From Bilabrum cf. latius (taxonomy: Eukaryota): a DNA stretch of 64,000 nt. The DNA lies in assembly GCA_965178125.1 (NCBI GenBank), contig OZ237737.1:930001-994000 (forward strand), read 5' to 3'. Of this stretch, positions 16,603 to 64,000 are shown one piece after another. Numbering within the stretch: position 1 is the first letter of the stretch; each line of letters opens with the position of its first letter. A program made the translations under genes and the position numbers. Under the pieces are notes generated by a model that saw nothing but the letters and a program-made list of their open reading frames with translations, was not told where the DNA came from and ran no database searches.

Positions 16603-19600
16603 TTACACCTGAGATTCGTCCTGACTTGCACGACCTGGGTCCTCCGTGTGCTCAGCCTCCCCTGACGACTCCGCACGCCTCTGCTCAACTTCAAGTTCAG
16701 ACTGGGCTCGCGCTTTACCTACAAGCGGGTTGTGCTGCATGCTCGTTGTAGCACTGCGGCCCCCAAGAAGAGAGCGCTGCGAGCGGCCCTTGCCACCACC
16801 GGGCTTGGAGACGAGCAAGCTGCCTCGCCTGGTCGCGCTCTGCCCGAACCGCTTCTTCTGCCTGCCAGAGCCAGAGTCCTTCATCCTGCGCCTGGCCGGG
16901 GTCGTGCTGCTGCCCCCGCTGGTGGGCGCGGAGGTCCGGGCGGCATCCACCTGTTGCTGCTGCAGCCTCTCCTTGAGCTGCTCCACGGAGCCGTGCAGGC
17001 TATTCATCCACAGGCGGACGCTGGGCCACATCTCCTGCGGGGGCGGGTGTTCCATCGCCAGCATCGTGTCCACTGAGAACGAGGCACCCACGCCGCTGGC
17101 CGAGGCGCCCTTGCTGTTCATAGCTTGCATCATCAGTGGGTTGCTGGCCATCTGTAGGTCATCCTCGCCGTCATCTTGAAGCATCTCGGCGCCCTTCTTG
17201 CCGCCCTTGCCGGCCTTGGCGACGTCGTGGGCGTTGGCCCGCTCAGCGATGGACTTGCAGCACCCGCACGACTGCAGCGTAGCGGCAGCGTGGTCCGGCG
17301 CGACGCCGAAGTAGATGTCCAGGGCCAGCACGATCAGGGCATACATAACGATGACCACGAGGATGAGCACCGTCGCCCACGTGATGGCGTCGTACTCGCT
17401 CTGATAGTAGTCGATCTGGTCGGGGTCGAATCGGCTCGAGGCCAGCATCACGGCGGCGAGGCATACGAGGATACCGCAGCCCAGCAGGAAGGCCTCGACC
17501 TGGTTGTAGTCCAGCAAGTACTTGACGATCTGCTCGCCGACGTGGTTGGAGGAGCGTCGCGAGTCCAAAAGAGAGTCTACCTTGTGCGTCCGCTTGTAGT
17601 TCTTCTCCAGCATAGCCTGGATCTCGGACTCGATCCGGGCGTGCTCGATGCTGGTGAGCACCTTGATCCTGTGCTCGGCGATTACACGGCCTTGGTCGCC
17701 ACGAGACATGAAGGGCTCGTGGCGGATCTGCAGCACGAAGGCAGCGAACAGGGCCAGCATCAGCACGCTCATCTGGTACGTCGGGGAGACACGGAACACC
17801 AGAGCAATGGTGGCGATGGCGAACTTGCGGGTAATGATCATGATCATCCAAGCGCTGCTCCCGGGCTTGAATGGGTAGTAGAGCTGGTGCCACGTCTTGC
17901 GGAAGTGGTACAACTTGCTCTTGTTGTCGTTGCCTGTGCCTGCCGCGCGCAGGATCTGGTCGTGCTTGATCGAGTTTTTGTTTGATCGAGCGAACCAGAA
18001 CATGGCCAGAGGCAGCACGATGCTGTATCCCAGGAATGCAGCCATGCCGAAGGGGAACAGGACCAGCTGTTTGGAGCCTGGCTGCCAGCACGGGTAGTCA
18101 AGCAGACCGTCCATGTAAGTCACTCCCTGTGGGTCCGGAGGAGTCGTCTACAGGCAGCTCACGGTGCTGAGAGCAGCCTGAGTCACAAACAGGTAGCACA
18201 CGCGCGACAGGATGATGAGCGAGCTGATCAGCTGCGGCGCATGGGCGTGTAGGTGCTCCTTGCCCTTGCTGGTGCAGCACATCTTGTAGATCAGGCGTCC
18301 CAGATACACCGAGAAGAACAAGATAACCACCACGACCGGAAGAAGCACAGTGGCTGCGAACTTCTGCTCGTAGGTCACATCGGGTTGGATGCACTCCGGG
18401 GCCGCCAGCTCGACGTTCAGGTTGAAGGCGGACAGGATCTGGAAGAAGCGCTCCAGGACCGGGGGCCAGCGGATGCGTGCGTTGGAGAACAGAGCCAGCA
18501 CCTGGAAGGTGTCAGCGCAGATCATGATCAGCACGTTCTTGATGCCCTTCCTGTTGAGAATGAAGCCAGCGGTCCCTGCCATCATGGCGGCGATTCCCAT
18601 TCCCACGAAGATCAGCCACGGCCTGTCAGGGCACTTCCTGCACTCACCACCGATCCGATAATGGGTACCCTTTACGCACTGCGAGCAGCGATCACCCGTG
18701 TATCCATCGGAGCAGGTGTTGTTGCCGACACAGGCCCACGTAGGCTCGCACGGTGCCGTGTACATGCACTGCTGCTCCCTGAGCACCGACAGCTCGTGGA
18801 ACTCGTCGCGACCTGGGTGGCAATACCTCGTGTCCTTGTCGTCGCCACTCGTGACGTTGTAGTCAAGTCTCCAGAATCCTTCGTCGCTCGTGACCAGATC
18901 CTCGTACGACTCGCCGCCGGGGCACACAGCACCGATGCGCTCCTCCTCGCAGTTCACGCAGAACTCGCCCACAAGCCCGTAGAAATCCTTCTCGCACTGG
19001 AAGAACACCAGCTCCTCGTATTCGTAGATGATGTAGGGCTCTGTGCGGTTTGCAGCCAGAATGGTCATGTTCTTAAGGCCCACGCGGTCGCGCTAGGCCT
19101 CGCACTGCAGTAGCCCGTCGTTCAGCCACTGCGGCTCAATGCATTCCAGACCACCGATGACAATCTCCACAAGTGTCGGCTCGCCGCCGAAGTTCTTACC
19201 GCGGATACGCACCTCGTCTCCGTCAGCGTTGGGCTCAGAGCTCTGCACGGCCATCACGACTGGCGGGTCATACGCGAAGATTACTGGCTCGGGTGCCTCC
19301 TCGACCACCACCATGCGGGAGCCGCTTGGGTCTGAGCTGTCAGGCACGTACTCGATGCGATCATCCTAAGATGACCTGCCGTTTACAGACACGGTCACAG
19401 GGAGGTTGTCACCATAGCCAGCTGGAGCGCGACACACGATCCTAAAGTGGGAATGCGAACCCACCCTGCCCGGGATCTCATTGTCGGCGGCGAGTGGGCA
19501 GTCCCACTCGCCTACGCGCACACTCACGTCACCGTCGGTGCCGAACGACTCGCCAACCAGCTCTAGGTAGAACTGGCCAATCGTGTCGTAGCACTCGGCG

Positions 19601-22600
19601 GGCGCCTTGCGGCAGTGCCTCGTGTACGTCCCAGTGGCAGCGTCATACGTGTTAAAGCAGCGATCCACGTCCTCACAGTCCTCGGGGTCTCGCTCAAAGT
19701 TCTTGACGCCATACAGCCTGGGTGGGTCAAACACGAAGCTGATGCGTGGGTTAACATCCTCAGGTGAGTTTGCCGACGACTGCCCGCCGACCCACACCAC
19801 GATGACCATGTCGTTTGACATGTAGCTACCGCGCGGGATGGGGAAGCGCATGTGCGTGTGGTTCTGCGAGACCATGTCAGACGGTCCAACCAAGAGCGAG
19901 TCCTCGGACAGCGGGAAGCCTGGCGAAGGGCCTGTGGCCCGAGTGAAACTCTGCAGCTCCCGCCGCCCTGCCTGTGGGGGCACGTAGAACTCAATCCACG
20001 CGGATCCCTCGAGTCCAAAGTCCATGCCAGCCAGCGTTGCGATCACCGCATCCTCCGAGGTCATGCCCTCTCCCGACTCCAGCTTGGCCTCCTCGATCTC
20101 CAGCAGGCCCTCGAAAACGTCCCACATGGCAAATGGGTTCTCTCGAGTCTCATTCATTGTCGGGAGCACCACCCTCTGTCCGCTGGTGGGAGCAGAACGA
20201 GGCCACAGAGACTGCACCACGGGTCGGTTGTAGGCGTACCTCACGATGGGAGATGATTCGTCTGACTGCATAGAAGAATCAACTAGCGCGCCGGCGGGTG
20301 CCTCCTCCGATATGTCACTGGACTGTCCTGCCAGTGCCACATGAACTGCAAGGTCGCGAGACTGTCCTGCGGGAGTGCGGCACAGCAGCGACGAGTGCTG
20401 GGCATTCGCTGTCCAAGGGTCCCTCACAGCGTCAATTGTGCACTGCCTGCCGCCGATGAGCACCTCCAGAGACGGGTCTGCGGGACCACCAGGGCCGAAG
20501 TTCCTGCCCTCAATTCGAACTAGGGCATCCCCCGCGGTGGGTGCGGGGCCAGCTGCACTACCGGGCACGAACGCCTCAGCGGAGATCGACGTGACGATGG
20601 GCTGTCCGTACCGCAGCCCGCGCCTGCCCTCGGAGAATTGGTCCGTGATCGCGACAGTAAGTGCGCGCACAGTACCGGCACCAGGGCCAATTACAGCCTC
20701 GATCGCATTGTGCGTGTGCTGGTGGCCCAGGCTGGCGTTGTGGACTACTTCCACCTCGGGCAACGCCACAAGCGGGGTGGCAAGCGACGATGTTCCGAAG
20801 TTGAGGCCCTCCAGACGTACGCGGCAGCCGCTCGTAGGCATACCGCGGCGGGGTCTGGGCAGCGCTGGCGGCGTGCCTGTGGAGCCATCCGCCTCGAAGT
20901 CGAGCCACGCCTGATCGTAAACCTCCGAGTCGAAGAAGCGGTCGGCTGCCAATAGGTCACTGCCGGCGGGCAGGCCCGGGTAGTCCTCCAGAGTGATCAC
21001 GCGAGCCACCTGCGGCTTGCCGTAGGACACAGTAAGTCCACTGTCTTCTCGGCTGGTAGCCCCAGTCACCGCGATCAGCACGACGTTACCAGCTCCAGTT
21101 CCCTCCGGCATGAGGCAGCTGAGGGTCGAGTACGTGGTGGCCTGGGTGTTGTCAGGGCAGCACGATCCACTGGAGCACGTACGACCGTCAGTGGGCTCCT
21201 GGCAGGGGTTCACTGCAACATTGGAGCACATACGTCCGCCGATGGTGACGTTGAGCTGGTCCAGGGGCACGCGGTTCAGGTCTGCCACACCGAAGATCTC
21301 GAACACCATGCGGTTACCGGTGGCAGGGTCAATGGCATCTGTGGGCACGTTCTCGTAGTCATTGGGCTGGTTCCTGCCATCGAAGGAGGGGATAGGCTCG
21401 GCGAACCCGAACTCATTGGACACCTGTCCGCCCACCACAAGCTGCACGATGTGCTCCCTGGAGGCATCCTCGGCTGGATCTTTCCGATACAGAACCACGA
21501 TCTCGGAATGCGTCCAAGTCCATGAATCTACCGGCAGCCCATCGATCCGCACGGACCCGCAGCCGTCCTTTCCGTTGCAAAAGTTCTCGCCCTCGATGAT
21601 CACACGCAGCGATGTCTGCGCCTCGAGGCTCTCGGGGTCGATGCCGAAGTCAGTCAGGATGCGATCAGGGGCGATGTTCTTGATCTCGGGCTTGCCGAAG
21701 TCAAACAGAGCCACGTTGGACAGCGCGTTGCCAGCACCGATGGTCAAGAAGAGCTCTCGGTCCGTGCCATACCCCTCGGGTAGACTGAACTCCACCTGGT
21801 GCAGTCCACGGTGCTGCACAATGCGCTCATCGGTAACCCTTGGCCTGGAAAGACCAGCCACCCACTCCTTCAGAGTGGCGTCGTCTTCTACGCGAGCCAT
21901 GTCGGCCGCATCCTGATCGTCGTTGTACATGCTCAATGGGTAGGGATACCCTGCCGGCTGCAGTGTCCTGATGCCAGACGATTGCCTGGCTCCGTCCTCG
22001 CCCCCGAGTCTCGAGAGGACGAGGTATCTCCGCATGTCTGCTGGAATGCCGTCAGTCTCACCAGGAGCAAGGCTGCTCGAGTCAAGCACTCGCATGAAGC
22101 GAGAGTCGTCGTTGTCCATGAGACCGTCCGCATTGAAACGGATGCCCACCGCAGCCGAGTTCCAAGCCAGTCCCAGGTTCGTACCGGTAACAAGAACAGT
22201 GACATCGCCTTCCGTTGGTCCTGAGATCGGCTGGGCTGCCAAAACGCGGGGCGGCGCATACCGGGTCACAGCGGCGGAAGGCTGGCTGGCCTATCCACCC
22301 ACGCGCACGATCCATTTCATGGCCTATCCCGGAGGACCTGGCACAGTGAGGCACCGCAGTGTGAAGTGGTCCTCGTAGATTGAGCAGTTCAGCGCGGTGA
22401 AGCCGGTGCCTGCAGGCCCGTACGTCACCTCCTCCAAGTGCTCTGCAACGGAGAAGTTCATTCCATGAATCAAGACCCAGTCGCCACCATCTGTGCTCAG
22501 CTCATTGATGGGCAAGCTGCCCGACTCGCTCTCGAAGCTGGAGATGTGCGGCGGCGAGTAGGACGTTGTGGGGCTCACGCTTTGCAGTCTGTCAACAGTC

Positions 22601-25600
22601 ATGCGCCACCTGAGGCCTTCACCGGCACCCACCGCAGTCAGGCACCGCACCACCTCATGCGCCTGGAGCACAAAGCAGTCAGTGGCACCAAACTCGACGT
22701 CGAGCTCCTCGCTGCCGTAGACGGCACGATCCACTGGCGTGCCGACAGGCCCGAAGTTCCTGCCTTCGATGTCCACGATCTGGGAGCCGTTCGTGTATGC
22801 GAGCTGGGAGCCTGGCCCCTTGTATATCGAGATAACCGGCGGGTGGTAGCTGGACATTGCTGTCTCCTGGGGGCCAGATGTCTGGCCACCGACCGATGCA
22901 GCCCACACCAGCTTGTCTCCGCTGCCCTCGGCTACCTTGCACTCGATCTGGACGTGTGCCACAACCACGCGGCAGCTCACCGCCGCAAAATACGGCCAAG
23001 TACGGCCATGTGTGTCGTTCAGGCGACCATACACTGCAGTGGGCAGAGTTGCAGCTGTGCCCAAAATCATCCCTTCGTCGTCCACCTCAGTCACTGGGCC
23101 AAAGTAGTTGCCGTTCAGAAGGATGGCAACATCTCCGGAAGTCGGTGCGTTCACGGCGCCTGGCCCGCTCACGCTCTTGAGCACAGGTGCGCTGTACCTC
23201 GTGGTATCAGCACTGGCAGCACTGGCTAAACCAGCCACAGCCACTCGCCATCTATGGCCCATGCCAGTACCAGCAGAAGGCTCGCACACCATCACGCGGT
23301 GAGCACGATTATCCGGCACCCTGCACACCAGGGCCTGGTAGACGAAGCCATCGTTGTCCTCGATGGCAGCCCGCTAGTCGGCGATCAGCTCCAAAGAGTT
23401 GGGGGCAGCACCAGCAGCATCCACTCCGGCAGCATCGCCAGCGACGTAACTCGCCGAGTAGAAGGCCAGGACGTACTAAGGACCCAGCCCAGCAGGACCC
23501 ATGTTTGCGCCCTCGATGGTGATGAGGCCAGCATCAGAGCCGCCACGCGTGTCGAGAGGTTGGACGCCCATTGCAGGCGCAGACTCGTTGAGCAGAGGCA
23601 TGCGAACTGCGGTGATGGACGGGCGCATGTACCTCAGAGTCGTGTTGGAGAACTCTTCAGAGCGCTGCTGACCCACATCCACGGTTAGCACGAAGCTGTG
23701 ACCCGCGCCTGGCACCACATCGCACCTGATCTCAGTGTGAGCCACCGATACCTGGCATCCGGTAGTTTCCAGGTTGAGGGTAGCAGCACCATCGGCGCGA
23801 GCCATCACGGAGCTCTGCGCGCCGTACCGCAGGCGCTGTGCAGGCATAGCATCACGGGCGGCCTAGGGCAGGTCACTGCCGATAGGACCAAAGTCTGTGC
23901 CGGTGAGCACAATGGCGTAGTCACCAGAAGTGCCGACGGAGCCGCCCTCAGTCGGGAGCACCCCATCGTCAGATCCATCTGCTGCCCCGAAGCTGGAAGC
24001 CGCAGCGGTGATCACAGGCGGGAAGAAGGATGTTCGCCGGAAACGCTGCATCGGCAGCAGCGCGCCAGTCTCGGGGTTCCTGTCAGCGGTGCCGGCGTCG
24101 GCGCTGCCGGCCAGCACGCGCGAGGACACGTTCTGCAGTGAATTCGCCATCTGATCCCCGTTCACCGTCACAGTCCAGAAATGATCCTTACCATATCCCT
24201 CGGGTACGGTGCACTTGATCTTTGTGTTGGCTTCCACGACCGAGCACCCGGTTGCGGTGAACTCAGTCCCGGAGGGCCCGAATGTCACAGCGACTGTTGT
24301 GGGGTTCTATCCCACCTCAGCAGAGCTGCCCTCCCGCAACAAGCGGTCGGCAGTCTTTCCGAACGATGCACCCCACAGCTCCACTTCCGCGCCGCCGCGA
24401 GTGCTGAACATGGCGTCCATCTCTCCGTGGGAGGCACCGTACATGGTACGCCCAGCCGAGCCAGACTAGGATACGAACACGTTGTAGCCAAGATGGCTGG
24501 TCTCAGTGGCTTCAGTCACGTGTACTGAGGTGATTGCCACGTCGTTGTCATTGAGAACGGTAAGACTGATGGTGGTGTTAACAGCGATCGGAAGCGCTTC
24601 CAAGTCAGAGTCCTAAACGATCGCGATGATCTCGTACGAGTCTTGGTTTTCCCAGTCCAAGCGAGCCCCCGCACGGAGTCGGATCACGCCCGTGCCGTCG
24701 ATCTCAAAGAATGAGGTAGATGGTGAGTTAGGGTCCAGCGAGAACTGCATGCGGCCCCATGCACCGCTATCTTCATCGCTGGCTACCACGCGACCCACGA
24801 TGGTGCCACTCGCGGCCATCTCGCGCACTTGCAGCTTCTCGCTAGCACCAAGAGTCGTGCCATCAGGCTTCTCGATGCGCTCGATCACGCTAGGTTCGTT
24901 CTTGTCCTCCACAATCAGCCGTACGAACGCATCGTCATGGTTGGAATCGGTGTCGGTCGCTCGCAGCACCAGGGAGTACTGGTCGGCGGCCTCATGATCT
25001 AGCACAGAGGCAAGTGCGACACTGTCGATGTTCGTGCTTGAGGGCTGGAACAAAAGCATCGAGGCTGCGGCAGATGCACCCGCGCCGAACCACGAATAGA
25101 CCAGGCTGTCACCGAATCCGTCTGCCAAATCCTCATCAGACGCACGTAGCGCGCCATCCTCGGAGCCCCTCAGGATCGTGCCTACTGGCTCGCCCTCCAC
25201 GACTCGAAGCACGTACTCATCGGCGCTCGTCTATCCGCTGGGGAACACAGGCGCCTCCTGCACCTCGGTCACTGTGATAATCACCGTGCGAGAGGCTGAC
25301 AGCGGGGAATCCGGGTGGTCGTCCACTGCGGTCACGATGGCCTCATACCGGTTAAAGAGACCCACTCGGGGGCCTTCAAAGTTAACGCCGCCCTCGGCTG
25401 CAGCCACCTTGATGCGAGCAGTACCCACACCATCCGGGCCAGCACCTTCAACGGTCTCGATCTCGAAGGGGAACGGCCTGTTGACGTTGGGCCCACCCGG
25501 GCGAAGCGAGTACGTAAGCTTCTGGCCCTCGCTACCATCAGCATCTGCGCCCATGACGATGCCTACCGGCGTACCCACGGCCGTGTTCTCCGCGAGGGAG

Positions 25601-35517: not shown

Positions 35518-37176
35518 ATGTCTCGCGTCTCTAGCGTTCCAATGTCACACTGGTTTATTTCTCTTCATGATGGTGAAGGGGGTAGCACGCGAGAGACTTT
35601 GCAACAGCTAATGGGCCACTTGGAGGCTGGAGGTGGAGCGTCCGCGCCGGGAGATGAGTATGTAGCTGGTGTTGCGCAATTTGATGTACCATCCCGAAAG
35701 CTGCAGGTCGGTACACTGGATTAGCTCATGATTTTGTCGGATGCAATGGACAGAAACGTGCAGCATGCGCAAACGATTGTCCGAAGGGCCGAGCGAATGA
35801 TCGAGGACAGCTCTGCTGCGGAAAAATCGCTGGCACAGGGAAGTTCTGCTCCTCGCACAACGTCAGATACCGCTGATCGAATCAAATTGAGGGTCGATGG
35901 CGAGCCCACGGCGCGCTGGCTGAAGCGATTCCGGTGGGACCGACAAACGTGGGATTGTGACTAGCCTCTATACCGGCTGGCAGCCCAATTGCGCTCAACC
36001 GCCGATGCAAGGGACGAAGAAATGCGAGGCTATTGGTCAGTGTTCTAGGAGAAGCGGCAGGAATTTCTTGATTTGCAGAAAAAGCGAGGGTGAGGTCCAG
36101 CAATGAATTCAGCCTTGCATGTTCTCGAACGGCCACTTGTATTGGACACAGCTGCTCTGATGATTTGCCACTGCAGGGGGTCCTTCTTATCTGGATCTAT
36201 TGAAGCTGTTCTAACCGAAGAGGCCTTGCGCACGGCAGCAGTGGAGCTGTTTGTCGACTCAGCATTCATTCAGTCTGTCGCCGTGATCGTCCCGAGGTGA
36301 GCTTAGCACTTGTAACTGTGTACCTACTTCGCATCGCACGAAAGGTATTCTAAGCAAATATTTTTTGTTTCTATTAATTCAACTACAACTGCCATCTGCA
36401 GCGGGCTGTCAGAGCGATTCCTCGGCGAGTACGAGGGGCTGGCCGCCGACGCGGTGGTGGTGGACGAGGCGGCGTTGGCAGCGCGAGCTGAGGCTCACCG
36501 GGAGCCGCAGGGAGGACCATCCAGGGCATCTCGCGCAGATATGTCATCCTCATCTGCGTCTGGTGGGGCGGGTAGCAGCACAGGGCCGTCCACGGCATCC
36601 GCAGCGTCGCCGGACGCCCCGCGAATTTCTCCCGTGGTTCCTCGCAGCGCTCGAAAAGTGGCGGAAGACGACGAGGGCATGGGACTGTTCGTTGTGAATG
36701 TTCTGAGCAACTACCTGGAAGAGTTCACTTCTGCCGCGAAGGCCAGGAGATACATCGTCCGCGACTGGAGGTACACCCCTGCCGCCGGCGGAGAGCTCTC
36801 CACGCAGTCAGCGAGGGCCGAGGTGGAGATGCGAGCGGCGCTTGCAGAGCTGAGGGGGCAGACCGAGCGGATGTATTCGGAGTGCTTTAAGGTGTGGGTG
36901 CACATGAGCGCCATCAAGCTGTTCGTTGAGTCAATCCTGGAGTACGGGCTCCCCGTGCGATGCTCGTTCGCCATGGTGAAGCCGCTGCCCGGCAAGTTCG
37001 AGCTCGTCAGGACGAGACTGCAAGAGGCTTACGTGAAGGAAAGCAAGTTTGCCGCTGGTGCTGGCTTTGAAGGAGACCTGGACAGTGATGAGGAGGAGGA
37101 GGCCAAAGGAGCTGGTGTGCGGGAGCTGCCGTTCGTGGGGTGGTCAGTGGCCGTGACTGAATCGTGCAGGGGATGA
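35518..37176 (+). CDS. ATP6V1C: V-type proton ATPase V1 subunit C (~488 aa), 2 introns, 3 in-frame TAG
   Basis: Family motifs VGTLD*LMILSD, RFRWD, DSAFIQSVAVIVP, VVPRSA, YIVRDWRY and WVHMSAIKLFVESILEYGLP. TAGs at 35722, 35962 and 36046. Introns at 36090..36176 and 36097-type GT..GCAG site 36297..36401. Stop is TGA at 37174-37176. The start may instead be the second Met at 35542. Confidence 0.92.
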
Positions 37177-52200: not shown

Positions 52201-55200
52201 TCAAGAACATGCAGAAGGATGCCAACTTGGCCGTGCTGAAGCAGACCGATCCCAACTTCCTTCGATCGATGGAGAACGCGGTCCAGTTCGGGCAGCCAGT
52301 GCTCCTAGAGAACGTCGGCGAGGAGCTGGACCCGTCGCTCGAGCCGATCCTGCTCAAGAACCTTTTCAAGCAGGGCGCTGCATGGTGCCTGCGAATCGGA
52401 GACTCGACCGTGGAGTACGACGATAAGTTCAAGCTGTACATCACCACGAAGCTGCGAAACCCGCACTATCTTCCAGAGGTCAGCACGAAGGTCACCCTCC
52501 TCAACTTCATGATCACGCCTGCCGGCCTGCAGGACCAGCTGCTCGGAGTGGTTGTTGCTGAAGAGCGGCCCGATCTTGAGCAAGCCAAGTCTAAGCTGCT
52601 GCTGCAAAGCGCGGAGAACCAACGCGTGCTGGCAGAGCTGGAGGATAAGATCCTCCACGTGCTCAGCTCCAGCAAGGGCAACATCCTCACGGATGAGACG
52701 GCGGTGAAGGTGTTGAACGAGAGCAAGGCTTTGTCCAATGAGATCACGGAGAAGCAGAAGGCCGCCGAAGCCACGGAGAAAGAGATCGACGAGACCCGGG
52801 CGGGATACACCCCCGTGGCGGCTCACGCGTCCCGGCTATTCTTTGTGACCGCAGATATGGGCAACATCGATCCCATGTACCAATACTCGATGGGGTGGTT
52901 CCGAGGACTCTTTGTGGGTAGCATCCGCAACAGCAAGAAGAGCGACAACTTGAAGGCTCGCATTGCCTCCTTGAACGACCATTTCACGTACTCTCTGTTC
53001 AAGAACGTGTGCAGGTCACTCTTTGAGAAGGACAAGCTGCTCTTCTCCTTCCTGCTGTGCATCAAGATCATGATGGGACGCGGTGAGGTGGACGGTGGGG
53101 AATGGCTGTTCCTTCTTACAGGCGGTGTTGCCATGGACAACCCACACACGAATCCAGCGAGTGAGTGGCTAAGTGAGAAGAGCTGGGGCGAAATTTGCCG
53201 CCTTTCTGGGCTCCCGGCCTTTAAGGGGCTGCGGGAGGATGTCGAGGGTAACATCGGCGGCTGGAAGCGGCTGTATGATGACAAGGCGCCTCACCGGGCG
53301 GATCTTCCCGGTGAATTCGGGCAACTTGGCAGGCTGACTAGGATGCAGCGCCTACTCGTGCTGCGCTGCTTCAGATCGGACAAGATCATGCTGGGCGTGT
53401 AGGACTTTGTGGGTGCGCAGCTCGGCGAGCAGTACCTAAAGCCCCCTCCCTTCGATCTTAAGGGCTGCCACGAGGACTCCGCCCCAGGGCAGCCGCTTGT
53501 GTTCGTGCTCAGCCCGGGATCCGACCCCATGGCGGCACTCATGTCGTTCGCCGATTCGATCAAGGCAAATGTGCAGCAGATTTCGCTCGGACAGGGGCAG
53601 GGCAAGTTTGCCGAGGAGATGATCGCAGAGGGCCGCAAGACCGGCTCGTGGGTCGTCTTGCAGAACTGCCACCTCGCTACAAGCTGGATGGCATCACTGG
53701 AGCGAATCTGCGAGCAGCTTGAAAACGCGGCAGCCGGCAAAGGTGATGGTGATGGTGAGGACGGGGACGAGGAGCCCCTGCACCGGAACTTCCGGCTGTG
53801 GCTTACGTCGTACCCGACCAAGGACTTCCCGGTGAGCGTGCTGCAGAACGGCATCAAGATGACGAACGAGCCTCCCAAGGGCCTGCGCAATAATCTGGAG
53901 CGGTCCTACTTGTCGGACCCTATTGTGGATCCCAAGTTTTTCACGGGCGTGTCCAACAGAGAGAGGTTCCGCCGCATGCTGTTCGGACTGTGCTTCTTCC
54001 ACGCGATGGTGCAGGAGCGCAGGCAGTTCGGGCCGCTGGGATGGAACATACCGTACGAATTCAACGAATCAGACCTCAGGATCAGCGTGCGCCAGCTGGC
54101 CATCTTTGCCGACGACAAGAATTACTCGGCAGACCCCGCGGACGAGAGCGTCGCGATCGAAGATGCTCTTCCGTACGACACGCTGAGGTACCTCACCGGA
54201 GAATGCAACTACGGCGGGAGGGTGACGGACGACAAGGACCGCAGGTGCCTGCTGTCCATCCTGCGCATGTTCTACTGCGGCGACATCCACGAGCCTGACA
54301 AGAGCTTGTCGCCGTCAGGGAACTGGAAGACTCCGCCAGATGACGTGCGGGAGCACGCAGACTACCTCAAGTTCATCCAGGGCTTGCCAGTCGTATCGGC
54401 TCCGGAGGTGTTTGGACTGCATTCCAATGCCACGATCACCAAGGACTTGAACGAGACCAGCAGCCTGTTCACGTCTATTCTGCTGACCGAGCGAGGCGGC
54501 GGCGGTGGTGGATCTAAGGGCAGTGGCAAGAGCAAGGAGGACACCATCGGTGATGTGGCCTCTGATGTTTTGTCGAAGATTCGTGACATTTATGACCTGG
54601 AGGCGATCGGTGGCTAGTACCCGACCGATCCGAAGCAGTCCATGAACACTGTGCTGGTGCAAGAGCTGGCGAGGTTCAACGTGCTGATCAAGGTCGTGAA
54701 GGATTCCTTGCGCGACGTGGTCAAGGCCCTGCAGGGACTCGTTGTTATGAGCACTGCCCTGGAGCAGGTGGCTGACGATCTCTTCTTCGGCAGGGTGCCG
54801 TCCATGTGGCTCGACAGGTCGTACCCATCGCTGAAGCCGCTCGGCTCCTACGTTGGCGATCTGGTGCAGAGGCTGGAATTCTTCGACAACTGGGTAAAGC
54901 ATGGCGTGCCAGTGCATTACTGGATGCCTGGGTTCTTCTTTACCCAGGGCTTCCTGACTGGGGCCCTGCAGAACTACGCCCGCAAGTACACCGTGCCGAT
55001 CGACCAGGTAACATTCGAAGTCGAATGCACCCGGTTACGTGAGAGCGACATCAAGGAGGCCCCTGAGGACGGCATCTATGTGTGGGGTCTCTACTTCGAT
55101 GGCTGCAGGTGGGACAGCACTGCGATGCGACTCGCCGAGTCCGAGCCTAAGTAGCTCTTCGCTCCGGCACCTGTCATGTGGCTCAAGCCTACGAAGGTGG

Positions 55201-55382
55201 ACGAGATGCGGAAGTTCAACAGCTACAATGCGCCTGTATACAAGACAACTGAGCGGCGGGGCATGCTAAGTACGACTGGGCACTCGACGAACTTCGTGAT
55301 GATGATGAAGCTTGCCTGCGCGGAGTCTCCTGACCATTGGATCCGGAGGGGCGTTGCACTGTTGCTTGCCTTAGATGATTGA
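40284..55382 (+). CDS. Axonemal dynein heavy chain, inner-arm type (DNAH3/DNAH7/DNAH12-like group), ~5032 aa, apparently intronless, at least 23 in-frame TAG
   Basis: All ORF pieces from 40284 to the TGA at 55380-55382 are in one frame. AAA motifs [81 protein letters not shown] and WPLMIDPQG; stalk coiled coil; C-terminus GHSTNFV...[15 protein letters not shown]. TAGs at 41499, 41820, 43131, 43782, 44250, 44304, 44310, 44319, 44703, 44886, 45567, 45720, 47214, 47448, 47838, 48297, 48993, 48999, 50304, 52185, 53400, 54615 and 55152. Confidence 0.96.
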
Positions 55383-56133: not shown

Positions 56134-59100
56134 ATGAAGGCAATATGCTGTGAGTCTAGTCCTGTCATCAACATTGGAACATGTTCATGGAAGAAGATAA
56201 TAGCCCCTTGGTGGCATCATTCGTATCGAATTTTCTAAATCCAAATTGCAGCTTACATGCTCTTAGCCACGGCCTGCCTGGTCATGACACCATTCGCAAT
56301 GGCAAACGGATGCGAGAGCAAGCCGTGCCTGAACGGTGGCACGTGCAGGCCCGACGGCGACACCGGCTTCACATGCACGTGCGCTGCCGGACACACCGGC
56401 GACACATGTGACGAGACCGACTCATCCGGTGGCGGCAGCTCCACCCAGACCGGATGCGAGAGCAAGCCGTGCCTGAACGGCGGCACGTGCAGGCCCGACG
56501 GCGACACCGGCTTCACATGCACGTGCGCTGCCGGATACACCGGCGACACATGTGACGAGACCGACTCATCCGGTGGCGGCGGCTCCACCCAGACCGGATG
56601 CGAGAGCAAGCCGTGCCTGAACGGCGGCACGTGCAGGCCCGACGGCGACACCGGCTTCACATGCACGTGCGCTGCCGGATACACCGGCGACATATGTGAC
56701 GAGACCGACTCATCCGGTGGCGGCGGCTCCACCCAGACCGGATGCGAGAGCAAGCCGTGCCTGAACGGCGGCACGTGCAGGCCCGACGGCGACACCGGCT
56801 TCACATGCACGTGCGCTGCCGGATACACCGGCGACACATGTGACGAGACCGACTCATCCGGTGGCGGCGGCTCCACCCAGACCGGATGCGAGAGCAAGCC
56901 GTGCCTGAACGGCGGCACGTGCAGGCCCGACGGCGACACCGGCTTCACATGCACGTGCGCTGCCGGATACACCGGCGACACATGTGACGAGACCGACTCA
57001 TCCGGTGGCGGCGGCTCCACCCAGACCGGATGCGAGAGCAAGCCGTGCCTGAACGGCGGCACGTGCAGGCCCGACGGCGACACCGGCTTCACATGCACGT
57101 GCGCTGCCGGATACACCGGCGACATATGTGACGAGACCGACTCATCCGGTGGCGGCGGCTCCACCCAGACCGGATGCGAGAGCAAGCCGTGCCTGAACGG
57201 CGGCACGTGCAGGCCCGACGGCGACACCGGCTTCACATGCACGTGCGCTGCCGGATACACCGGCGACACATGTGACGAGACCGACTCATCCGGTGGCGGC
57301 GGCTCCACCCAGACCGGATGCGAGAGCAAGCCGTGCCTGAACGGCGGCACGTGCAGGCCCGACGGCGACACCGGCTTCACATGCACGTGCGCTGCCGGAT
57401 ACACCGGCGACACATGTGACGAGACCGACTCATCCGGTGGCGGCGGCTCCACCCAGACCGGATGCGAGAGCAAGCCGTGCCTGAACGGTGGCACGTGCAG
57501 GCCCGACGGCGACACCGGCTTCACATGCACGTGCGCTGCCGGATACACCGGCGACACATGTGACGAGACCGACTCATCCGGTGGCGGCGGCTCCACCCAG
57601 ACCGGATGCGAGAGCAAGCCGTGCCTGAACGGCGGCACGTGCAGGCCCGACGGCGACACCGGCTTCACATGCACGTGCGCTGCCGGATACACCGGCGACA
57701 CATGTGACGAGACCGACTCATCCGGTGACGGCGGCTCCACCCAGACCGGATGCGAGAGCAAGCCGTGCCTGAACGGCGGCACGTGCAGGCCCGACGGCGA
57801 CACCGGCTTCACATGCACGTGCGCTGCCGGATACACCGGCGACACATGTGACGAGACCGACTCATCCGGTGGCGGCGGCTCCACCCAGACCGGATGCGAG
57901 AGCAAGCCGTGCCTGAACGGCGGCACGTGCAGGCCCGACGGCGACACCGGCTTCACATGCACGTGCGCTGCCGGATACACCGGCGACACATGTGACGAGA
58001 CCGACTCATCCGGTGGCGGCGGCTCCACCCAGACCGGATGCGAGAGCAAGCCGTGCCTGAACGGCGGCACGTGCAGGCCCGACGGCGACACCGGCTTCAG
58101 TCCCGACGGCAACACCGGCTTCACATGCGTGTGCGCTGCCGGATACACCGGCGACACGTGTGAAGAGCATAGCCAAGATGGTGGCCAACCAAGGGACTGC
58201 ACCGAACTTGATTGCTTGAATGGTCGCTGTGTCCGCAGCATCCAGACGCCCGGAACGGTATAGTGCCAGTGCAATGCAGGCTGGGGAATCGATGAGAAAG
58301 GTTCTTGCACCGTTGAGGCCAAGGCGCCATGCAGCCCCAATCCATGCAAGAACAGAGGCACGTGCACCTCGCAAGATGACAAGTTTGCGTGCGACTGCAT
58401 GGATGGCTACTCTGGTGAGACGTGTGCCGTCGTGGATGACAGGACTCCCTGCGCGCCCATTGACTGCAAGGAGGGGATTTGCATGCTGAACGATGACAAT
58501 AAACCGCAGTGCATCTGCTCGACTGGGTGGCTGCAGGCTACGGACGAGTTGATTGCGCCTTGCAACGAGCCGCGAGGCAATAACAATGGCTCCGGTGGTG
58601 ATGGCGATGATGCCAAGCCAACGTGCAATGATGGCACAATGAACGGTCGCGAATCTGGAATCGACTGCGGGTACGCCATGTCAGATGACACGAATTCTTG
58701 CGAACTCTGCACTGAGGGGCTCGGTTGCTTCTCAAGCAAGAACTGTGCCGAGGGTCTCGTGTGCGAAGCAGACCGCCATGTGTGCGTGCCCAAAGAGCAA
58801 GAAGCTGGCACGTATGTGACTGTCTAGGGCCTTGAGATTCAAGGTCTGACCATTGCAATGTTCAACCGTATCAAGGACACTTTCGTCGCAGCCACTACGG
58901 AGGCCACGGGGGCTGCTAGTCTAGTTGTCACCGAAGTGGCTTTGGAAATGCCTGCCAAGTTGCCTTGCAACGGGTCAGATGTATAGGGCACATCTGGAAC
59001 TGCTTCCGATACCGCTACCAGTGGAACATCCTCAAGCTCAGGCACCAGAGATGCACGGCGCCGAGTGCAGGACAGGCCAGAAAGGCCCGGAGACTCCACC

Positions 59101-62100
59101 GATCCTGCCGATGGCCCTGGTGACAACAAAGGAGGAGACTCCACCGATCCTGCCGATGGCCCTGGTGACAACAAGGGAGGAGACTCCACCGATCCTGCCG
59201 ATGGCCCTGGTGACAACAAAGGAGGAGACTCCACCGATCCTGCCGATGGCCCTGGTGACAACAAAGGAGGAGACTCCACCGATCCTGCCGATGGCCCTGG
59301 TGACAACACAGGAGGAGACTCCACCGATCCTGCCGATGGCCCTGGTGACAACACAGGAGGAGACTCCACCGATCCTGCTGATGGCCCTGGTGGCGACAAG
59401 GGAGGAGACTCCACCGATCCTGCCGATGGCCCTGGTGACGACAAGGGAGGAGACTCCACCGATCCTGCCGATGGCCCTGGTGACAACAAAGGAGGAGACT
59501 CCACCGATCCTGCCGATGGCCCTGGTGACAACAAAGGAGGAGACTCCACCGATCCTGCCGATGGCCCTGGTGACAACAAGGGAGGAGACTCCACCGATCC
59601 TGCCGATGGCCCTGGTGACGACAAGGGAGGAGACTCCACCGATCCTGCCGATGGCCCTGGTGACAACACAGGAGGAGACTCCACCGATCCTGCCGATGGC
59701 CCTGGTGACAACAAAGGAGGAGACTCCACCGATCCTGCTGATGGCCCTGGTGACGACAAGGGAGGAGACTCCACCGATCCTGCCGATGGCCCTGGTGACG
59801 ACAAAGGAGGAGACTCCACCGATCCTGCTGATGGCCCTGGTGACGACAAGGGAGGAGACTCCACCGATCCTGCTGATGGCCCTGGTGACGACAAGGGAGG
59901 AGACTCCACCGATCCTGCCGATGGCCCTGGTGACAACAAAGGAGGAGACTCGACGGATAGTGAACCAGCAACGAAGCTGTACCTCAGTATCAGGCTGGAG
60001 TTCAGCATGGCCGAGAACCCACGCAAGATCCAAGAAATTGTGGCTTCGTACGTGCGGGGAGCGCCAATCCAGGGTGGCAACGGACTGTACGACGATATCA
60101 TCGCTGCATTCCCTGCTTTTGCTCGTTTCCTGCATGTTGACTCAAGGAGAGCGTGCATTCAGCACATGCAGCTCGATACATCGCAGACGGCAGCCGAAGC
60201 TGTCTCCGTCTGCCAACTTGCTCGGTGTGGGCGTGGCCAGTGCCTGCCAGATTCAAGGAACAGGCAGGGGTTCGTGTGCGCTTGCGATGATGGCTGGGGC
60301 ACGGACATGCGCGGCACCTGCTCCATAGACATGGGCAAGTGCTCCACAAGCCCTTGCAAGAACGGGCGGTGCGCTCTGGATGCTTCCTCAGCATCTGGTT
60401 TCAAGTGCACCTGCAAGGAAGGCTGGACCAAGGACAAGAGCGGTGCCTGCACTGTGCCTGTTCGTGTCAGCCCGTGCCGGTCGCAGCCGTGCGGCATGGG
60501 CAGCTGCGTGGACAATGAGACGTCAGCAGCTGGATTCCAGTGCGAGTGCATGCGAGGCTGGGGGCAGGACAAGGCTGGAATATGCAAGATCGAAGAAGAC
60601 TACTGTGCCACTGAGCCATGCGGGTTCGGCAACTGCAAGTTGGACCGGAAGAACAGCAAAGGCTTCACCTGCTCGTGCGAGGAGGGCTATCGACTGGACG
60701 CGGACGGGTCATGCACCATTAAGGTTTCAATGGAGCAGCCGTCCAAGTGCGACGCAAACCCCAGGCTGTGCAAGGCTGGCTTCTGCGAGGACACGCCAGA
60801 CGCTCCGAACGGATTCACGTGTTCGTGCTTCGATGGATACGGCACAGATGAGGACGGAATCTGCAGCATCAAGGACTACTGCTTCGGTGATCCGTGCATG
60901 AACGGGGAGTGCATTGCATCGAGGGGCGCCAAGCGGGGATTCAAGTGCAGCTGCAAGGAAGGATACACTCTGGACCGTGTCGGTGTGTGCAGTGTAGAGG
61001 TCAAGGACTACTGCGAGGCCGAGCCTTGCGGGTAGCACGGCACGTGCAAGTCATTCCAATCTGACGGTGGAGGCTACGTGTGCTTCTGCCAAGACAACTG
61101 GCTGAAGGACTACCTGGGAAGCTGTACGGTACCCAAGCCGGAGCGTCCGTGCGAGACAGCCACGTGCGGCAACGGTCAGTGCATCGAGGACGAGCGAGCT
61201 CGGAAGGGCTACTACTGCAAGTGCGAGAAGGGCTGGGTCAGGAACACCGTGTCGGGCGAGTGCTCAGAGGTGAAAGACGCGTGCTGGCCCAATCCGTGCC
61301 GCAATGGCGGCATGTGCAGCAGCTAGGCAGGGGCCAATAACTTTACCTGCACGTGCCCCTCTGATCGCTACAGCGGTACTCGCTGCCAGAAGGTGTAGGT
61401 CCGCGGCCCTTGCGCGAGCAAGCCATGCGGGCGAGGTGTTTGTAAGGCAACGAGTGACCAGGAGTACCAGTGCTCGTGTGACAGCGGCATCATGAAAGAC
61501 GAGTCTGGCCATTGCACACAAGAGAGGCCAGCAGAGGCCCAGCCCACGTGCGACGATGGCGTCAAGAACGGCAACGAGACTGGAATCGACTGCGGTATCG
61601 ATGATGAGGACAGCTCGTGTGCCCTGTGCACAGAGGGTCTGCAGTGTCGATCCAGCGATAATTGTGCGGGAGAGCTAATTTGCTCGTAGGACTCCCGGAC
61701 TTGCACTGTTGCGGTAAAGCCCGCCGGTGCCTACGTCGAGGTTGATGCTCTCGAGATCAAAGGCGTGTCAGCCAGGCAGTTCATGCAGACGCTCAAGATC
61801 CCCTTTATGGAACAGATGAAGAACCGCACGGGGGCTGCAGAGGTCATCATTGAGAAGGTCTCAGAGGGCGATGAGAACGGCGCTGATGGTGCAGTGCGTC
61901 GGCTGCGCAGCCAGACCCGGGGGCTCTTCGGCTGGGTCAGGCAGCTGCAGGCATCCAACGACGCAGAAATCGCGGTGGACTCAAGCTTGCGCTTCCGCGC
62001 TGACGCAAACACCTTTGAGGCAGAAGAAGCTGTCGCTGGGTACGTCACGGGGGCTCCAGAGTCTGGTGGAAACGGCCTGCTGGAAGACTTGCAGGCAGCT

Positions 62101-62550
62101 GCACCCGCTCTAGCCGAACGCCTCACGGTAGACACATCGACCATCTCGTTCGAGACTGAAACGCTCACGGAGGCGGAGGTGGTCACGACGTACGTTGAGA
62201 CTGATAGTACCCCGGTAGTGGCTCCCTCACCCTCTTCGCAGCCAGCCCCTGCAGCATCGGCCAGCCCGTCGCCTGCCTCGGCTGGGGAACCGGTTGACCT
62301 GGACGAAGACAATGAGGACGAGGATGGTGAGGACGGGATCCCCATGGTTGCTATCATTGCAGCAGCCGTCGGAGTGGTTGTTCTCGTCGGCGTTTCAGTG
62401 ACGGCGTATTGCTGTTGCTGCGCGGCGAAGGCGGCCAACAAGACTGGGGTTCAACGGGGAGGGAAGGTTACCATCATCCACACCAATGGAAGCTTCAATG
62501 CAGCTAACCCTATGTCGAAGGCCGTCCAAGGCCGGCCTGTGCTCGCTTGA
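56134..62550 (+). CDS. Type I single-pass membrane protein (~2104 aa) with many EGF-like domains, two Cys-rich plus SEA-like modules and a Gly/Asp-rich repeat; 1 intron; 7 in-frame TAG
   Basis: Intron 56150..56251 (gtgagt..ttgcag) gives the signal peptide MKAICSYMLLATACLVMTPFAMA. One frame continues to TGA at 62548-62550 with TAGs at 58261, 58825, 58984, 61033, 61324, 61396 and 61687. EGF pattern CxxxPCxNGGTC...CxCxxGYTGxxC; TM segment IPMVAIIAAAVGVVVLVGVSVTAY followed by CCCC. Confidence 0.9.
56308..58162 (+). repeat. Coding tandem repeat with a 144-bp unit (one EGF domain plus Gly/Ser linker): 12 full copies and a 13th variant
   Basis: Unit starts at 56308, 56452 and so on to 58036 (12 x 144). 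Copies differ at only a few positions. The last copy has an internal 21-bp duplication (PDGDTGFS-PDGNTGF). Confidence 0.97.
59092..59946 (+). repeat. Coding minisatellite with a 45-bp unit (DSTDPADGPGD[N/D][K/T]GG), 19 copies
   Basis: The period of 45 bp runs from 59092 to 59946. Variation is limited to a few positions and there are no unique spacers. Confidence 0.97.
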
Positions 62551-62933: not shown

Positions 62934-64000
62934 TCAGCGCACCAGTGCGCAGTCATTGCCTGGCTTTCCATTCGTACACTTCTCTTTGAATGCATTGACC
63001 CAGTCCACCTGGTTCGTGCCAGCAGCCTGGAACGCAACGCCCATTGCTGTCACTGCGGCCTGCGGCTCGACGCGGTGGTGCGGTGAGTTCAGGAGACCCC
63101 CGACGCACACCCTCTCGAACTTGATCTTCTTCTGCATGTCGAAGCCGCCACCTCCGCCCCCCATCTCAGTCACGGCAGATTCGGCACACTCCTGCACTGC
63201 ACCCAGAGCATTGCCCGCCTCTTCGTCGGTGAGACCTGCAAGCACCAGGTCGGCTCTGTCCTCCTTTCGCAGCAGCGAAATGTGAGGACTTCTCTCCAGG
63301 AGCGGGCCGAGGTCGGAGTTGCCGCGCAGGAGCATGGCGATCCATGAGCCGTACCCTCCCCCTTCGGTGATGCTCTCCAGGTCCCTGCGGAAGCCGAAGT
63401 TGTACTGCGCCAGTTCGTTTTGGACCCTGCACATGTCGGCCTCGAGGACGTTAAAGAACTCGAGGTTGTTGGCCCAGTCGGCGATGGCCTCGTAATCTGC
63501 GCCGCTCACGTCTATTGGTGCGAGGGTCATGTGTGCGCGTGCTGAGGGCTGCAAGTAGGCCACTACAGTGTTCTTGCCCTTCACTTGGACGGGAAGGAAG
63601 CCGTCTTGGTTAGCCGGCAGGACTTTGAGGTTCTTCTTGGCGCAGGTCTTGAAGAAGCTTCCGAAGATGTCGGTGATTTTCGATTGGTCATCGGACGAAG
63701 GCTGGCCTTGGCCATAGACCGGGACCCTGCCAGGGTGGGACCTCCGAAAGTCTTCCAGAATCTTGGCGATCTCAACCGGGGTCTTATCAGCAAATAGGGC
63801 CAGGAGGTTGGTCAGCCGAGCGTTCTGATCACGGATCCGATCCGCAAACGTCTGCTGGGCGTATTTGATGTTATCGCTCCCATCCGAGAAACCTGAGGAG
63901 AAATCTTCACGCTGTTGTTGCATGTTATCGGCTGGAAACAGTTGCTGTGCAAGACGCTGCACTGCTGTGGTGCGATCGCCGACGTTGATCTTGCCGCGGG
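62934..64000 (-). CDS. Hypothetical protein, 3' part only (open to the right edge)
   Basis: Open frame of more than 340 codons with gene-like GC3-rich codon use, ending in TGA at 62934. I recognise no domain. The exact 3' end is uncertain if an intron is present. Confidence 0.6.
   Translation of the reverse strand, partial: RGKINVGDRTTAVQRLAQQLFPADNMQQQREDFSSGFSDGSDNIKYAQQTFADRIRDQNARLTNLLALFADKTPVEIAKILEDFRRSHPGRVPVYGQGQPSSDDQSKITDIFGSFFKTCAKKNLKVLPANQDGFLPVQVKGKNTVVAYLQPSARAHMTLAPIDVSGADYEAIADWANNLEFFNVLEADMCRVQNELAQYNFGFRRDLESITEGGGYGSWIAMLLRGNSDLGPLLERSPHISLLRKEDRADLVLAGLTDEEAGNALGAVQECAESAVTEMGGGGGGFDMQKKIKFERVCVGGLLNSPHHRVEPQAAVTAMGVAFQAAGTNQVDWVNAFKEKCTNGKPGNDCALVR

What the first reader, a model, noticed from the sequence alone, without database searches (positions are those of the whole stretch)
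16603..62936. TAA still terminates: UAG and UAA have different meanings
Seen: the true gene ends are TAA (gene C at 16603; Kir at 37347, followed by TGA) or TGA (gene B 3178, V-ATPase C 37174, dynein 55380, EGF protein 62548, last ORF 62934). No gene ends in TAG and I found no in-frame TAA in ~18,000 codons. Established knowledge: most nuclear reassignments (ciliate table 6, hexamitids, some ulvophytes) change UAA and UAG together. Decoupled cases such as Iotanema spirale (UAG=Gln), a rhizarian and some phyllopharyngean ciliates are rare. Inference: eRF1 here must reject UAG but read UAA and UGA, and only a CUA-anticodon tRNA should exist. Only two TAA ends are available in this window.
Basis: partly seen in the sequence, partly recalled or inferred. 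Interest (0 to 1): 0.82.

Follow-up and report, generated by a model that had tools for sequence, protein, structure and literature searches.

The report
Stramenopile reads UAG, stops at UAA
A flagellate related to Cafeteria reads the stop codon UAG as glutamine while UAA and UGA still appear to end its genes, a rare split of the two codons that I could not find reported for this group of eukaryotes.

Summary
Seven reading frames (17,741 codons) hold 63 in-frame TAG, 0 TAA and 0 TGA. Their two other sense frames hold 113 TAA and 115 TAG.

- **TAG = Gln.** It sits at four near-invariant Gln columns of an axonemal dynein. Against an orthologue in a metagenome contig (L001) it pairs with CAG, CAA or TAG in 30 of 36 pairs.
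- **Relative.** L001 has 23 TAG and 0 TAA in 2,683 codons.
- **Chance.** If TAA were a synonym of TAG, 7-13 would be expected in the window (P 1e-3 to 2e-6).
- **The one frame-TAA (347-349).** It lies in an 87-nt intron that RNA-derived contigs splice out.
- **Gene C.** It reaches the family's C-terminal motif before its TAA.

Weak points: there are only two TAA ends. One is followed directly by TGA and the other has no transcript cover. No genome is held, so eRF1 and the tRNAs could not be checked. The organism groups next to Cafeteria. Seven literature searches found no stramenopile case. Verdict: a new member of a known kind of code.

The parts
16603..16605 (-). TAA that ends gene C
   Evidence: Last codon of the 5,270-codon frame. 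The NP[LM] C-terminal motif of the family lies 40 residues upstream. Coding score is negative after it. The next in-frame TGA is 227 codons on, at 15924. No RNA cover here.
37344..37349 (-). TAA (37347-37349) that ends Kir, followed directly by TGA (37344-37346)
   Evidence: The IRK_C domain is matched to profile position 158 of 174, 12 residues before the TAA. A tandem stop cannot tell TAA-stop from TAA-sense.
16603..32415 (-). Gene C: giant cadherin-like / IPT-TIG / multi-pass membrane protein, with 20 in-frame TAG
   Evidence: Coding score turns positive only below about 31,980-32,070, so the 5' part of the open frame is not coding.
3178..15279 (-). Gene B, a paralogue of C. It has 7 in-frame TAG and ends in TGA. 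It includes a predicted 90-nt in-frame intron at 14937-14848.
   Evidence: RNA-derived contigs run colinear over 3184-8459 and further.
1..690 (-). Gene A (5' part, paralogue of B). Its 87-nt intron at 409-323 holds the only TAA in a coding frame (347-349).
   Evidence: The joint 322/410 is skipped in contigs of X5, X7 and X8. Donor GTGAGT, acceptor CGCAG.
40272..55382 (+). Axonemal dynein heavy chain (first ATG at 40284). It has 23 in-frame TAG and ends in TGA.
   Evidence: TAG at 47448, 48999, 52185 and 53400 stand at near-invariant Gln columns.
35611..37176 (+). V-ATPase subunit C in two exons (about 35611-36089 and, within 36316-37176, the second). The GTGAG donor is at 36090. Exon 1 has 3 TAG. 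The gene ends in TGA.
   Evidence: Pfam V-ATPase_C positions 205-370 of 371 in the second ORF. Exon 1 matches V-ATPase C chains of the PDB, E 1e-4..
37347..39326 (-). Last exon of an inward-rectifier K+ channel (Kir) gene, with 6 in-frame TAG. Upstream exons with GTGAG donors at 39664, 39524 and 39407.
56239..62550 (+). EGF-repeat membrane protein, with 7 in-frame TAG. It ends in TGA.
   Evidence: (translation printed).
62934..63998 (-). 3' part of an unnamed gene that ends in TGA
   Evidence: (no Pfam family).

Best explanation
The window is nuclear DNA of a GC-rich, intron-poor stramenopile that groups next to Cafeteria. In its lineage UAG has become a glutamine codon, while UAA and UGA have stayed termination codons (the 'code 15' pattern).

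Shown here: UAG stands for Gln, UAA and UGA are absent from coding frames, genes end in UGA (five) or UAA (two), and a sister species shows the same pattern.

Inferred from established knowledge, not tested here: a tRNA-Gln with anticodon CUA, one base away from the normal CUG, reads UAG but cannot pair with UAA. eRF1 has lost or weakened recognition of UAG while keeping UAA and UGA.
For: 1. **TAG = Gln.** Of the dynein's 23 TAG, the ones in well-aligned columns stand at Gln: 109/120, 120/120, 114/117 and 94/112 homologues. Among columns with at least 90 homologues and a top residue of at least 80%, TAG gives 4 Gln and 1 Glu. Ordinary Gln codons give 34 Gln and 4 Glu of 47. Log-likelihood is best for Gln by 14 units.
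2. **Orthologue L001** (85.7% amino-acid identity, 75% DNA identity, synonymous sites saturated at 232/724). 30 of the 36 codon pairs with TAG on either side have CAG, CAA or TAG on the other. Between paralogues, TAG in gene B faces CAG in gene A.
3. **TAA is absent in frame.** 0 TAA against 63 TAG in 17,741 codons, with 113 TAA in the off-frames. L001 has 0 against 23 in 2,683 codons; 20 of those TAG are not shared with the window. With an assumed TAA share of 0.10, P(0 of 83) = 1.6e-4.
4. **Positive control.** Among the 80 dynein loci, the 15 with TGA-only frames of more than 1,000 codons that contain TAA all have a TAA share of 0.17-0.86. For the four with GC 0.50-0.53 (L005, L017, L026, L049) it is 0.17-0.31.
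5. **The only frame-TAA is intronic** and is spliced out in contigs of three runs.
6. **Gene C's end.** Paralogue B and the three homologues P0125-P0127 carry an NP[LM] motif 8-17 residues before their C-termini. Gene C has it 40 residues before its TAA. Beyond the TAA the coding score is negative and GC3 falls from 0.68 to 0.38. Read-through would add 226 codons holding 2 more TAA.
7. **UGA is a stop.** The dynein ends flush with 73 of 111 homologues.
8. **Nearest kin without the change.** L002 has 0 TAG in 3,706 codons. The Cafeteria protein is full length.
Against: - Only two TAA ends exist. Kir's TAA is followed at once by TGA, so it says nothing either way.
- Gene C's last 60 codons have weak coding signal (GC3 about 0.55).
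- Gene C's TAA lies within GTAAG, which resembles a splice donor.
- No contig of the four runs covers 16009-16675, so termination there is not shown on RNA.
- One X8 contig fits only from 16786 upwards and runs on unlike the window below it. A loose end at 17211 is also listed for X8 and X5; that both belong to one contig is my inference. This may be a paralogue or another strain, or may mean the 3' end differs.
- One near-invariant Glu column (117/120) and one mostly-Glu column (94/120) carry TAG. Ordinary Gln codons do this too (4 of 47).
- GC-biased codon use lowers the expected TAA count. At an assumed TAA share of 0.05, P(0 of 83) is only 0.014.
- No tRNA, eRF1 or protein-level evidence is available.
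Confidence: 0.85

Rival explanations
1. Both UAA and UAG are glutamine codons (code 6 type) and UGA is the only stop. TAA is simply rare because third positions are GC-biased, and the two TAA 'ends' are read through.
For: A-ending codons are rare here: the A share of CAR, GAR, AAR and TTR is 0.10-0.17. Kir's TAA is followed at once by TGA, which fits either reading. Coupled reassignment is the common case (PMC11687900 Discussion; PMC5304391 abstract).
Against: 7-13 TAA are expected and 0 seen in the window. L001 shows 0 against 23 TAG. All 15 long TGA-only dynein frames from other organisms hold TAA at a share of 0.17 or more, including those with GC 0.50-0.53. Gene C would gain 226 codons of negative coding score, holding 2 more TAA, after its conserved C-terminal motif.
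Confidence: 0.07
2. The code is ambiguous or context-dependent. UAG (or UAA) is sense inside genes and stop near the 3' end, as in Condylostoma, karyorelictids or Blastocrithidia.
For: Such codes exist (abstracts of 10.1101/2022.04.12.488043 and PMC12153298, listing). The window has too few gene ends (7) to exclude occasional UAG termination or rare UAA read-through.
Against: No gene in the window needs a TAG end. The last TAG of the dynein (codon 4961 of 5036) and of Kir (codon 575 of 659) are followed by conserved sequence up to a TGA or TAA. There is no in-frame TAA or TGA at all.
Confidence: 0.05
3. The in-frame TAG are not translated as sense. They would be pseudogene lesions, assembly errors, unspliced introns or low-level read-through.
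For: Introns do exist, and two of them are in frame and open or nearly so (87 and 90 nt). A few of the 63 TAG could therefore be intronic.
Against: Five frames of 659-5,270 codons are open except for TAG. TAG stands at invariant Gln columns flanked by conserved sequence. A second species has the same pattern at mostly different sites: only 3 of 36 TAG-holding codon pairs are TAG in both species. Spliced RNA-derived contigs run colinear through gene B over 3184-8459, which holds two of its TAG codons, with no joint there. Whether the letters at those codons are the same in that strain was not shown, because the table was cut.
Confidence: 0.01

Closest known systems
Iotanema spirale (Fornicata): UAG = Gln, UAA kept as stop (PMC5304391; passages read)
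   Same: Same codon change, same amino acid, with UAA retained as a terminator. The predicted mechanism is the same: tRNA-Gln(CUA) plus an altered eRF1.
   Different: An unrelated supergroup (metamonad versus stramenopile). In Iotanema UAA is described as the dominant stop; here TGA ends 5 of 7 genes. Iotanema's eRF1 change (T32G in the GTS motif) could not be compared because no eRF1 of this organism is at hand.
Ciliates with UAG = Gln only ('genetic code 15'): Protocruzia tuzeti and two phyllopharyngean lineages (PMC11687900 Discussion). The name 'code 15' is taken from the abstract of PMC9523058.
   Same: UAG is read as Gln while UAA is not reassigned.
   Different: Ciliates are a group with many code changes. 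This is a stramenopile, where my searches found only mitochondrial code changes.
Rhizarian exLh (UAG = Leu) and Scotinosphaera (UAG = Ser), with UAA kept as stop (PMC11687900 Discussion)
   Same: Decoupling of UAG from UAA.
   Different: A different amino acid. Here Gln is favoured by 14 log-likelihood units over any other residue.
UAR = Gln codes (code 6: many ciliates, Hexamita, Streblomastix, Ulvophyceae, Amoeboaphelidium; PMC11687900 Discussion)
   Same: UAG = Gln.
   Different: Those lineages use TAA in frame, as do the 15 TGA-only dynein contigs. Here TAA is never in frame.
Cafeteria roenbergensis and the metagenome contig L002 (nearest kin in the dynein tree)
   Same: GC-rich and intron-poor. 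Closest dynein sequences (about 61% identity).
   Different: No in-frame TAG: L002 has 0 in 3,706 codons. The change therefore arose on the branch leading to the window organism plus L001.

Membership tests
Nuclear code with UAG = Gln and UAA/UGA = stop (code 15 type) | In-frame UAG at conserved Gln positions of conserved proteins | tested here: met
   Four near-invariant Gln columns of dynein. Likelihood is best for Gln. 30 of 36 orthologue codon pairs are Gln codons or TAG.
Nuclear code with UAG = Gln and UAA/UGA = stop (code 15 type) | No UAA in coding frames | tested here: met
   0 of 17,741 codons in the window and 0 of 2,683 in L001. The one frame-TAA is in a spliced intron.
Nuclear code with UAG = Gln and UAA/UGA = stop (code 15 type) | Genes end at UAA at their homologous C-termini | tested here: inconclusive
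   Two TAA ends. Gene C's follows the family's C-terminal motif and a drop in coding score, but it has no RNA cover. Kir's is TAA-TGA.
Nuclear code with UAG = Gln and UAA/UGA = stop (code 15 type) | UGA terminates | tested here: met
   0 in-frame TGA. The dynein TGA is flush with the C-terminus of 73 of 111 homologues.
Nuclear code with UAG = Gln and UAA/UGA = stop (code 15 type) | tRNA-Gln with anticodon CUA present, and none with UUA | not testable with these tools
   No genome is held. The window has no tRNA gene by ARAGORN or Rfam.
Nuclear code with UAG = Gln and UAA/UGA = stop (code 15 type) | eRF1 N-domain altered so that UAG is not recognised | not testable with these tools
   There is no eRF1 gene in the window and no genome.
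UAR = Gln code (code 6 type) | In-frame UAA used as a sense codon alongside UAG | tested here: not met
   0 TAA against 63 and 23 TAG. The control contigs show a TAA share of 0.17 or more.
Stramenopiles, close to the bicosoecid Cafeteria | Groups with Cafeteria in a protein tree | tested here: met
   Single gene, quick tree only. Window + L001 is sister to (P0006, (Cafeteria, L002)) with SH-aLRT 99, inside a starred clade of unnamed environmental sequences. No rRNA or multi-gene test was possible.

The most novel reading that the evidence does not exclude
This is the first nuclear genetic-code change known in stramenopiles. It would be an independent origin of the decoupled UAG = Gln / UAA = stop code in a lineage sister to Cafeteria. 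At least two species share it (75% DNA identity), and it is detectable in several public runs. As a bacterivorous flagellate lineage reading UAG as Gln, it would also be a concrete candidate host for the giant viruses with TAG = Gln and unknown hosts that this scan noted elsewhere. That link was not tested here.
Probability: 0.55. Interest if true: 0.72.

Novelty: new member of a known kind. Interest (0 to 1): 0.64.

Why it matters
UAA and UAG almost always change meaning together. The passages I read list only a handful of nuclear exceptions: Iotanema, a rhizarian, Scotinosphaera, Protocruzia, some phyllopharyngean ciliates and one oligohymenophorean.

Each independent case tests which constraints couple the two codons, namely wobble reading by tRNA and the shared recognition by eRF1.

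This case has several useful features:
- It is GC-rich and intron-poor.
- It has a close standard-code relative (Cafeteria).
- A second species shares the change.
- It is present in several sequencing runs.

That would allow a paired comparison of eRF1, tRNA-Gln and glutaminyl-tRNA synthetase across a recent code change.

There are practical consequences too. Gene callers using the standard code will shatter this organism's genes, as the 63 breaks in this window show. Viruses of such a host may carry the same code.

Tried and rejected
- **Whole genome:** none is held, so there was no eRF1, no tRNA set and no genome-wide stop table.
- **tRNA and RNA families in the window:** none found.
- **Earlier notes** on this genome or on look-alike stretches: none.
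I repeated it on 2250-3400.
I repeated it with shorter pieces.
- **Sequencing runs:** no RNA holder was listed. X5, X7 and X8 nevertheless hold spliced contigs.
- **Reads laid on 1-20000:** no contig covers 16009-16675, so nothing can be said about the transcript end of gene C. The Kir end lay outside the one stretch allowed.
- **Scan of genome contigs** for a mis-binned relative that could have given eRF1 and tRNAs: nothing.
- **Metagenome scan:** it gave the sister species only as a dynein-internal contig with no gene end. L048 is the same sequence as L001 (99.97%) and was not counted as independent.
- **Intron at gene C's TAA:** the TAA lies in GTAAG, but all 5 RNA-proved donors are GTGAG, and one GT[AG]AG is about what chance gives in 600 nt. 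I consider it unlikely but not excluded.
- **V-ATPase C exon 1 against solved structures:** this confirmed the gene, but its TAG fall in variable columns (Ser in both shown chains), so they are uninformative on the amino acid.
- **Upstream extension of gene C through the TAA at 32416:** coding score is negative, so it is not coding.
- **Careful tree search:** it did not finish in the time limit, so the quick tree is reported.
- **Supplementary files** of the papers were not seen. Additional file 6 of PMC5304391 (eRF1 alignment) would bear on the eRF1 comparison.
Full report
**What the window is.**
The 64-kb window has GC 0.55-0.65. Read with the standard stops it breaks into many medium ORFs. 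With TAG read as sense it gives frames of 4,033, 5,270, 659, 5,036 and 2,103 codons. They encode:
- two giant cadherin-like / IPT-TIG membrane proteins (genes B and C),
- an inward-rectifier K+ channel (Kir),
- V-ATPase subunit C,
- an axonemal dynein heavy chain,
- an EGF-repeat protein.

The best named hit of the dynein is Cafeteria roenbergensis (61% identity), followed by other stramenopiles. In a quick maximum-likelihood tree of a 1,151-residue dynein region (24 rows), the window groups with the metagenome contig L001 (SH-aLRT 100). That pair is sister to (P0006, (Cafeteria, L002)) with support 99. This is one gene and the quick search only. No genome is held for the window. The window has no tRNA or other Rfam match.

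**The observation.**
TAA ends gene C (16603-16605) and Kir (37347-37349), and Kir's TAA is followed at once by TGA. TGA ends gene B, V-ATPase C, dynein, the EGF protein and the last ORF.

In the seven frames (17,741 codons) there are 63 TAG, 0 TAA and 0 TGA. The two other sense frames hold 113 TAA, 115 TAG and 875 TGA. TAA is therefore not rare in this DNA; it is missing only where the DNA is translated.

**TAG is glutamine.**
- In alignments to up to 120 homologues, four dynein TAG stand at near-invariant Gln columns (109/120, 120/120, 114/117, 94/112). One stands at a near-invariant Glu column (117/120) and one at a mostly-Glu column (94/120). The rest are in variable columns.
- Ordinary CAG/CAA codons of the same gene show the same spread: 47 conserved columns give 34 Gln and 4 Glu. 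The likelihood is best for Gln by 14 log units.
- L001 is an orthologue from another species: 85.7% amino-acid identity over 2,657 codons, 75% DNA identity, and third positions of four-fold sites identical at only 232/724. Against it, 30 of the 36 codon pairs with TAG on either side have CAG, CAA or TAG on the other. Only 3 are TAG in both.
- Between paralogues, a TAG of gene B faces CAG in gene A.

**Is TAA really not a sense codon?**
The frames were defined as TAA/TGA-bounded, so I checked each boundary and used outside controls.
1. *Expected count.* With the A/G bias of the four purine-ending two-fold codon pairs (A share 0.10-0.17), 7-13 TAA would accompany 63 TAG. P(0) is 1e-3 to 2e-6.
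2. *Sister species.* L001 has 23 TAG (20 at sites where the window has none), 0 TAA and 0 TGA in 2,683 codons. Its CAA share is 0.245, giving P(0) = 1.6e-3. L048 is the same sequence as L001 and was not counted.
3. *Positive control.* Of the 80 dynein loci fetched, a mechanical screen flagged 42. The 15 with a TGA-only frame of more than 1,000 codons holding TAA (L005, L008, L014, L015, L016, L017, L019, L020, L022, L023, L025, L026, L033, L045, L049) all have a TAA share of 0.17-0.86. The four with GC 0.50-0.53 have 0.17-0.31. I did not check these frames one by one. Organisms that read both codons do show TAA in this very gene.
It lies in an 87-nt intron (409-323, GTGAGT...CGCAG) that contigs of X5, X7 and X8 skip. 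Gene B has a 90-nt intron at the same place. Four more spliced introns upstream in gene A all have GTGAG donors and CAG acceptors.
5. *Upstream of gene C.* The TAA at 32416 lies in sequence with negative coding score.

**The two TAA ends.**
- *Kir.* The IRK_C domain is matched to profile position 158 of 174, 12 residues before the TAA. Because TGA follows directly, this end fits either reading.
- *Gene C, in favour.* It aligns with paralogue B to within 75 residues of its end. B and the three database homologues P0125-P0127 carry an NP[LM] motif 8-17 residues before their C-termini. Gene C has it 40 residues before the TAA, so the homologous C-terminus is reached before the TAA. Beyond the TAA, GC3 falls from 0.68 to 0.38 and the coding score is negative. 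The next in-frame TGA is 227 codons away, past 2 more TAA and 3 TAG.
- *Gene C, against.* The last 60 codons already have weak coding signal. The TAA lies within GTAAG, which resembles a donor, although 5 of 5 proved donors are GTGAG. No contig of the four runs covers 16009-16675. One X8 contig fits only from 16786 upwards and is unlike the window below that point; a further loose end at 17211 is listed for X8 and X5. It may be a paralogue, and a 105-nt near-identical copy of this region lies at about 2200-2310. Termination at this TAA is therefore well supported by sequence but not shown on RNA.

**Mechanism.**
Shown here: the meaning of the codons as read from the DNA. Inferred from established knowledge (PMC5304391, Background and the section on molecular mechanisms, passages read):
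- A tRNA with anticodon CUA pairs with UAG but not UAA, and it is one change away from tRNA-Gln(CUG).
- eRF1 normally reads all three stops, so it must have lost UAG recognition. In Iotanema the candidate change is T32G in the GTS motif.

Neither could be tested here.

**Known or new.**
UAG-only reassignments listed in the Discussion of PMC11687900 are:
- a rhizarian (Leu),
- Iotanema (Gln),
- Scotinosphaera (Ser),
- Protocruzia and phyllopharyngean ciliates (Gln, Leu),
- one ciliate with UAA = Lys and UAG = Glu.

Seven full-text searches found no nuclear code change in a stramenopile. The only stramenopile items concerned mitochondria. Subscription journals and supplements are not covered, and the source runs date from 2025, so a description may be in press. 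The kind of code is known; the lineage appears new.

**A lead, not a result.**
Earlier notes of this scan describe giant viruses that read TAG as Gln while TAA and TGA stay stops, with unknown hosts. The giant-virus catalogue paper says that all confirmed isolates come from standard-code hosts (PMC13524828, passages). A Cafeteria-like host with this code would fit. I did not test any link.

Noticed in passing
window 1-32415, - strand: Three paralogous giant genes lie in tandem: A (only its 5' part), B and C. They encode cadherin-like repeats, IPT/TIG domains and a multi-pass membrane C-terminal region with a DUF7630-like Cys-rich module. Only three database homologues of the C-terminal 514 residues were found in the length range searched (282-900 residues).
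   Followed up: partly
window 323-409, 685-796, 883-976, 1030-1139, 1214-1360 and 14848-14937: The introns are short (87-147 nt) with a strict GTGAG donor and a (C/A)CAG acceptor. Two at homologous sites in genes A and B are multiples of three (87 and 90 nt), and the gene B intron is an open frame, so it hides inside the 4,033-codon ORF.
   Followed up: yes
window about 2200-2310 versus 16890-17000, - strand: A fragment of about 105 nt, nearly identical to part of gene C's 3' coding region, lies downstream of gene B's stop and then diverges, with stops. It looks like a remnant of a segmental duplication. A low-depth contig covers 1823-2226.
   Followed up: partly
window 3184-13821: The spliced contigs of X5, X7 and X8 differ from the window by about 1-3% in gene B (for example 53 letters in 3,783 and 120 in 4,200), and by 15 letters in 409 in its 3' UTR. 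In gene A the difference is 0 in 556. They come from another strain or allele. Contig breaks recur at the same places (8460-8511, 9174-9223, 11476-11530).
   Followed up: no
window 56239-62550, + strand: The EGF protein holds two long arrays of near-perfect tandem repeats. One is an EGF unit with a Ser/Gly linker repeated about 13 times. The other is a unit of about 20 residues rich in Asp, Pro and Gly repeated about 20 times.
   Followed up: no
window 37347-39326, - strand: The Kir C-terminal (IRK_C) domain is matched in two stretches, separated by several hundred residues of low-complexity sequence that holds four of the six TAG.
   Followed up: no
loci L005, L008, L014-L017, L019, L020, L022, L023, L025, L026, L033, L045, L049: Many environmental dynein contigs have long frames closed only by TGA, with both TAA and TAG inside. 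These organisms presumably read both as sense (perhaps ciliates). I used them only as a control.
   Followed up: partly
L002 (same metagenome as L001): A GC 0.72 dynein contig close to Cafeteria has no in-frame TAG. It co-occurs with the TAG-reading species in one metagenome.
   Followed up: partly
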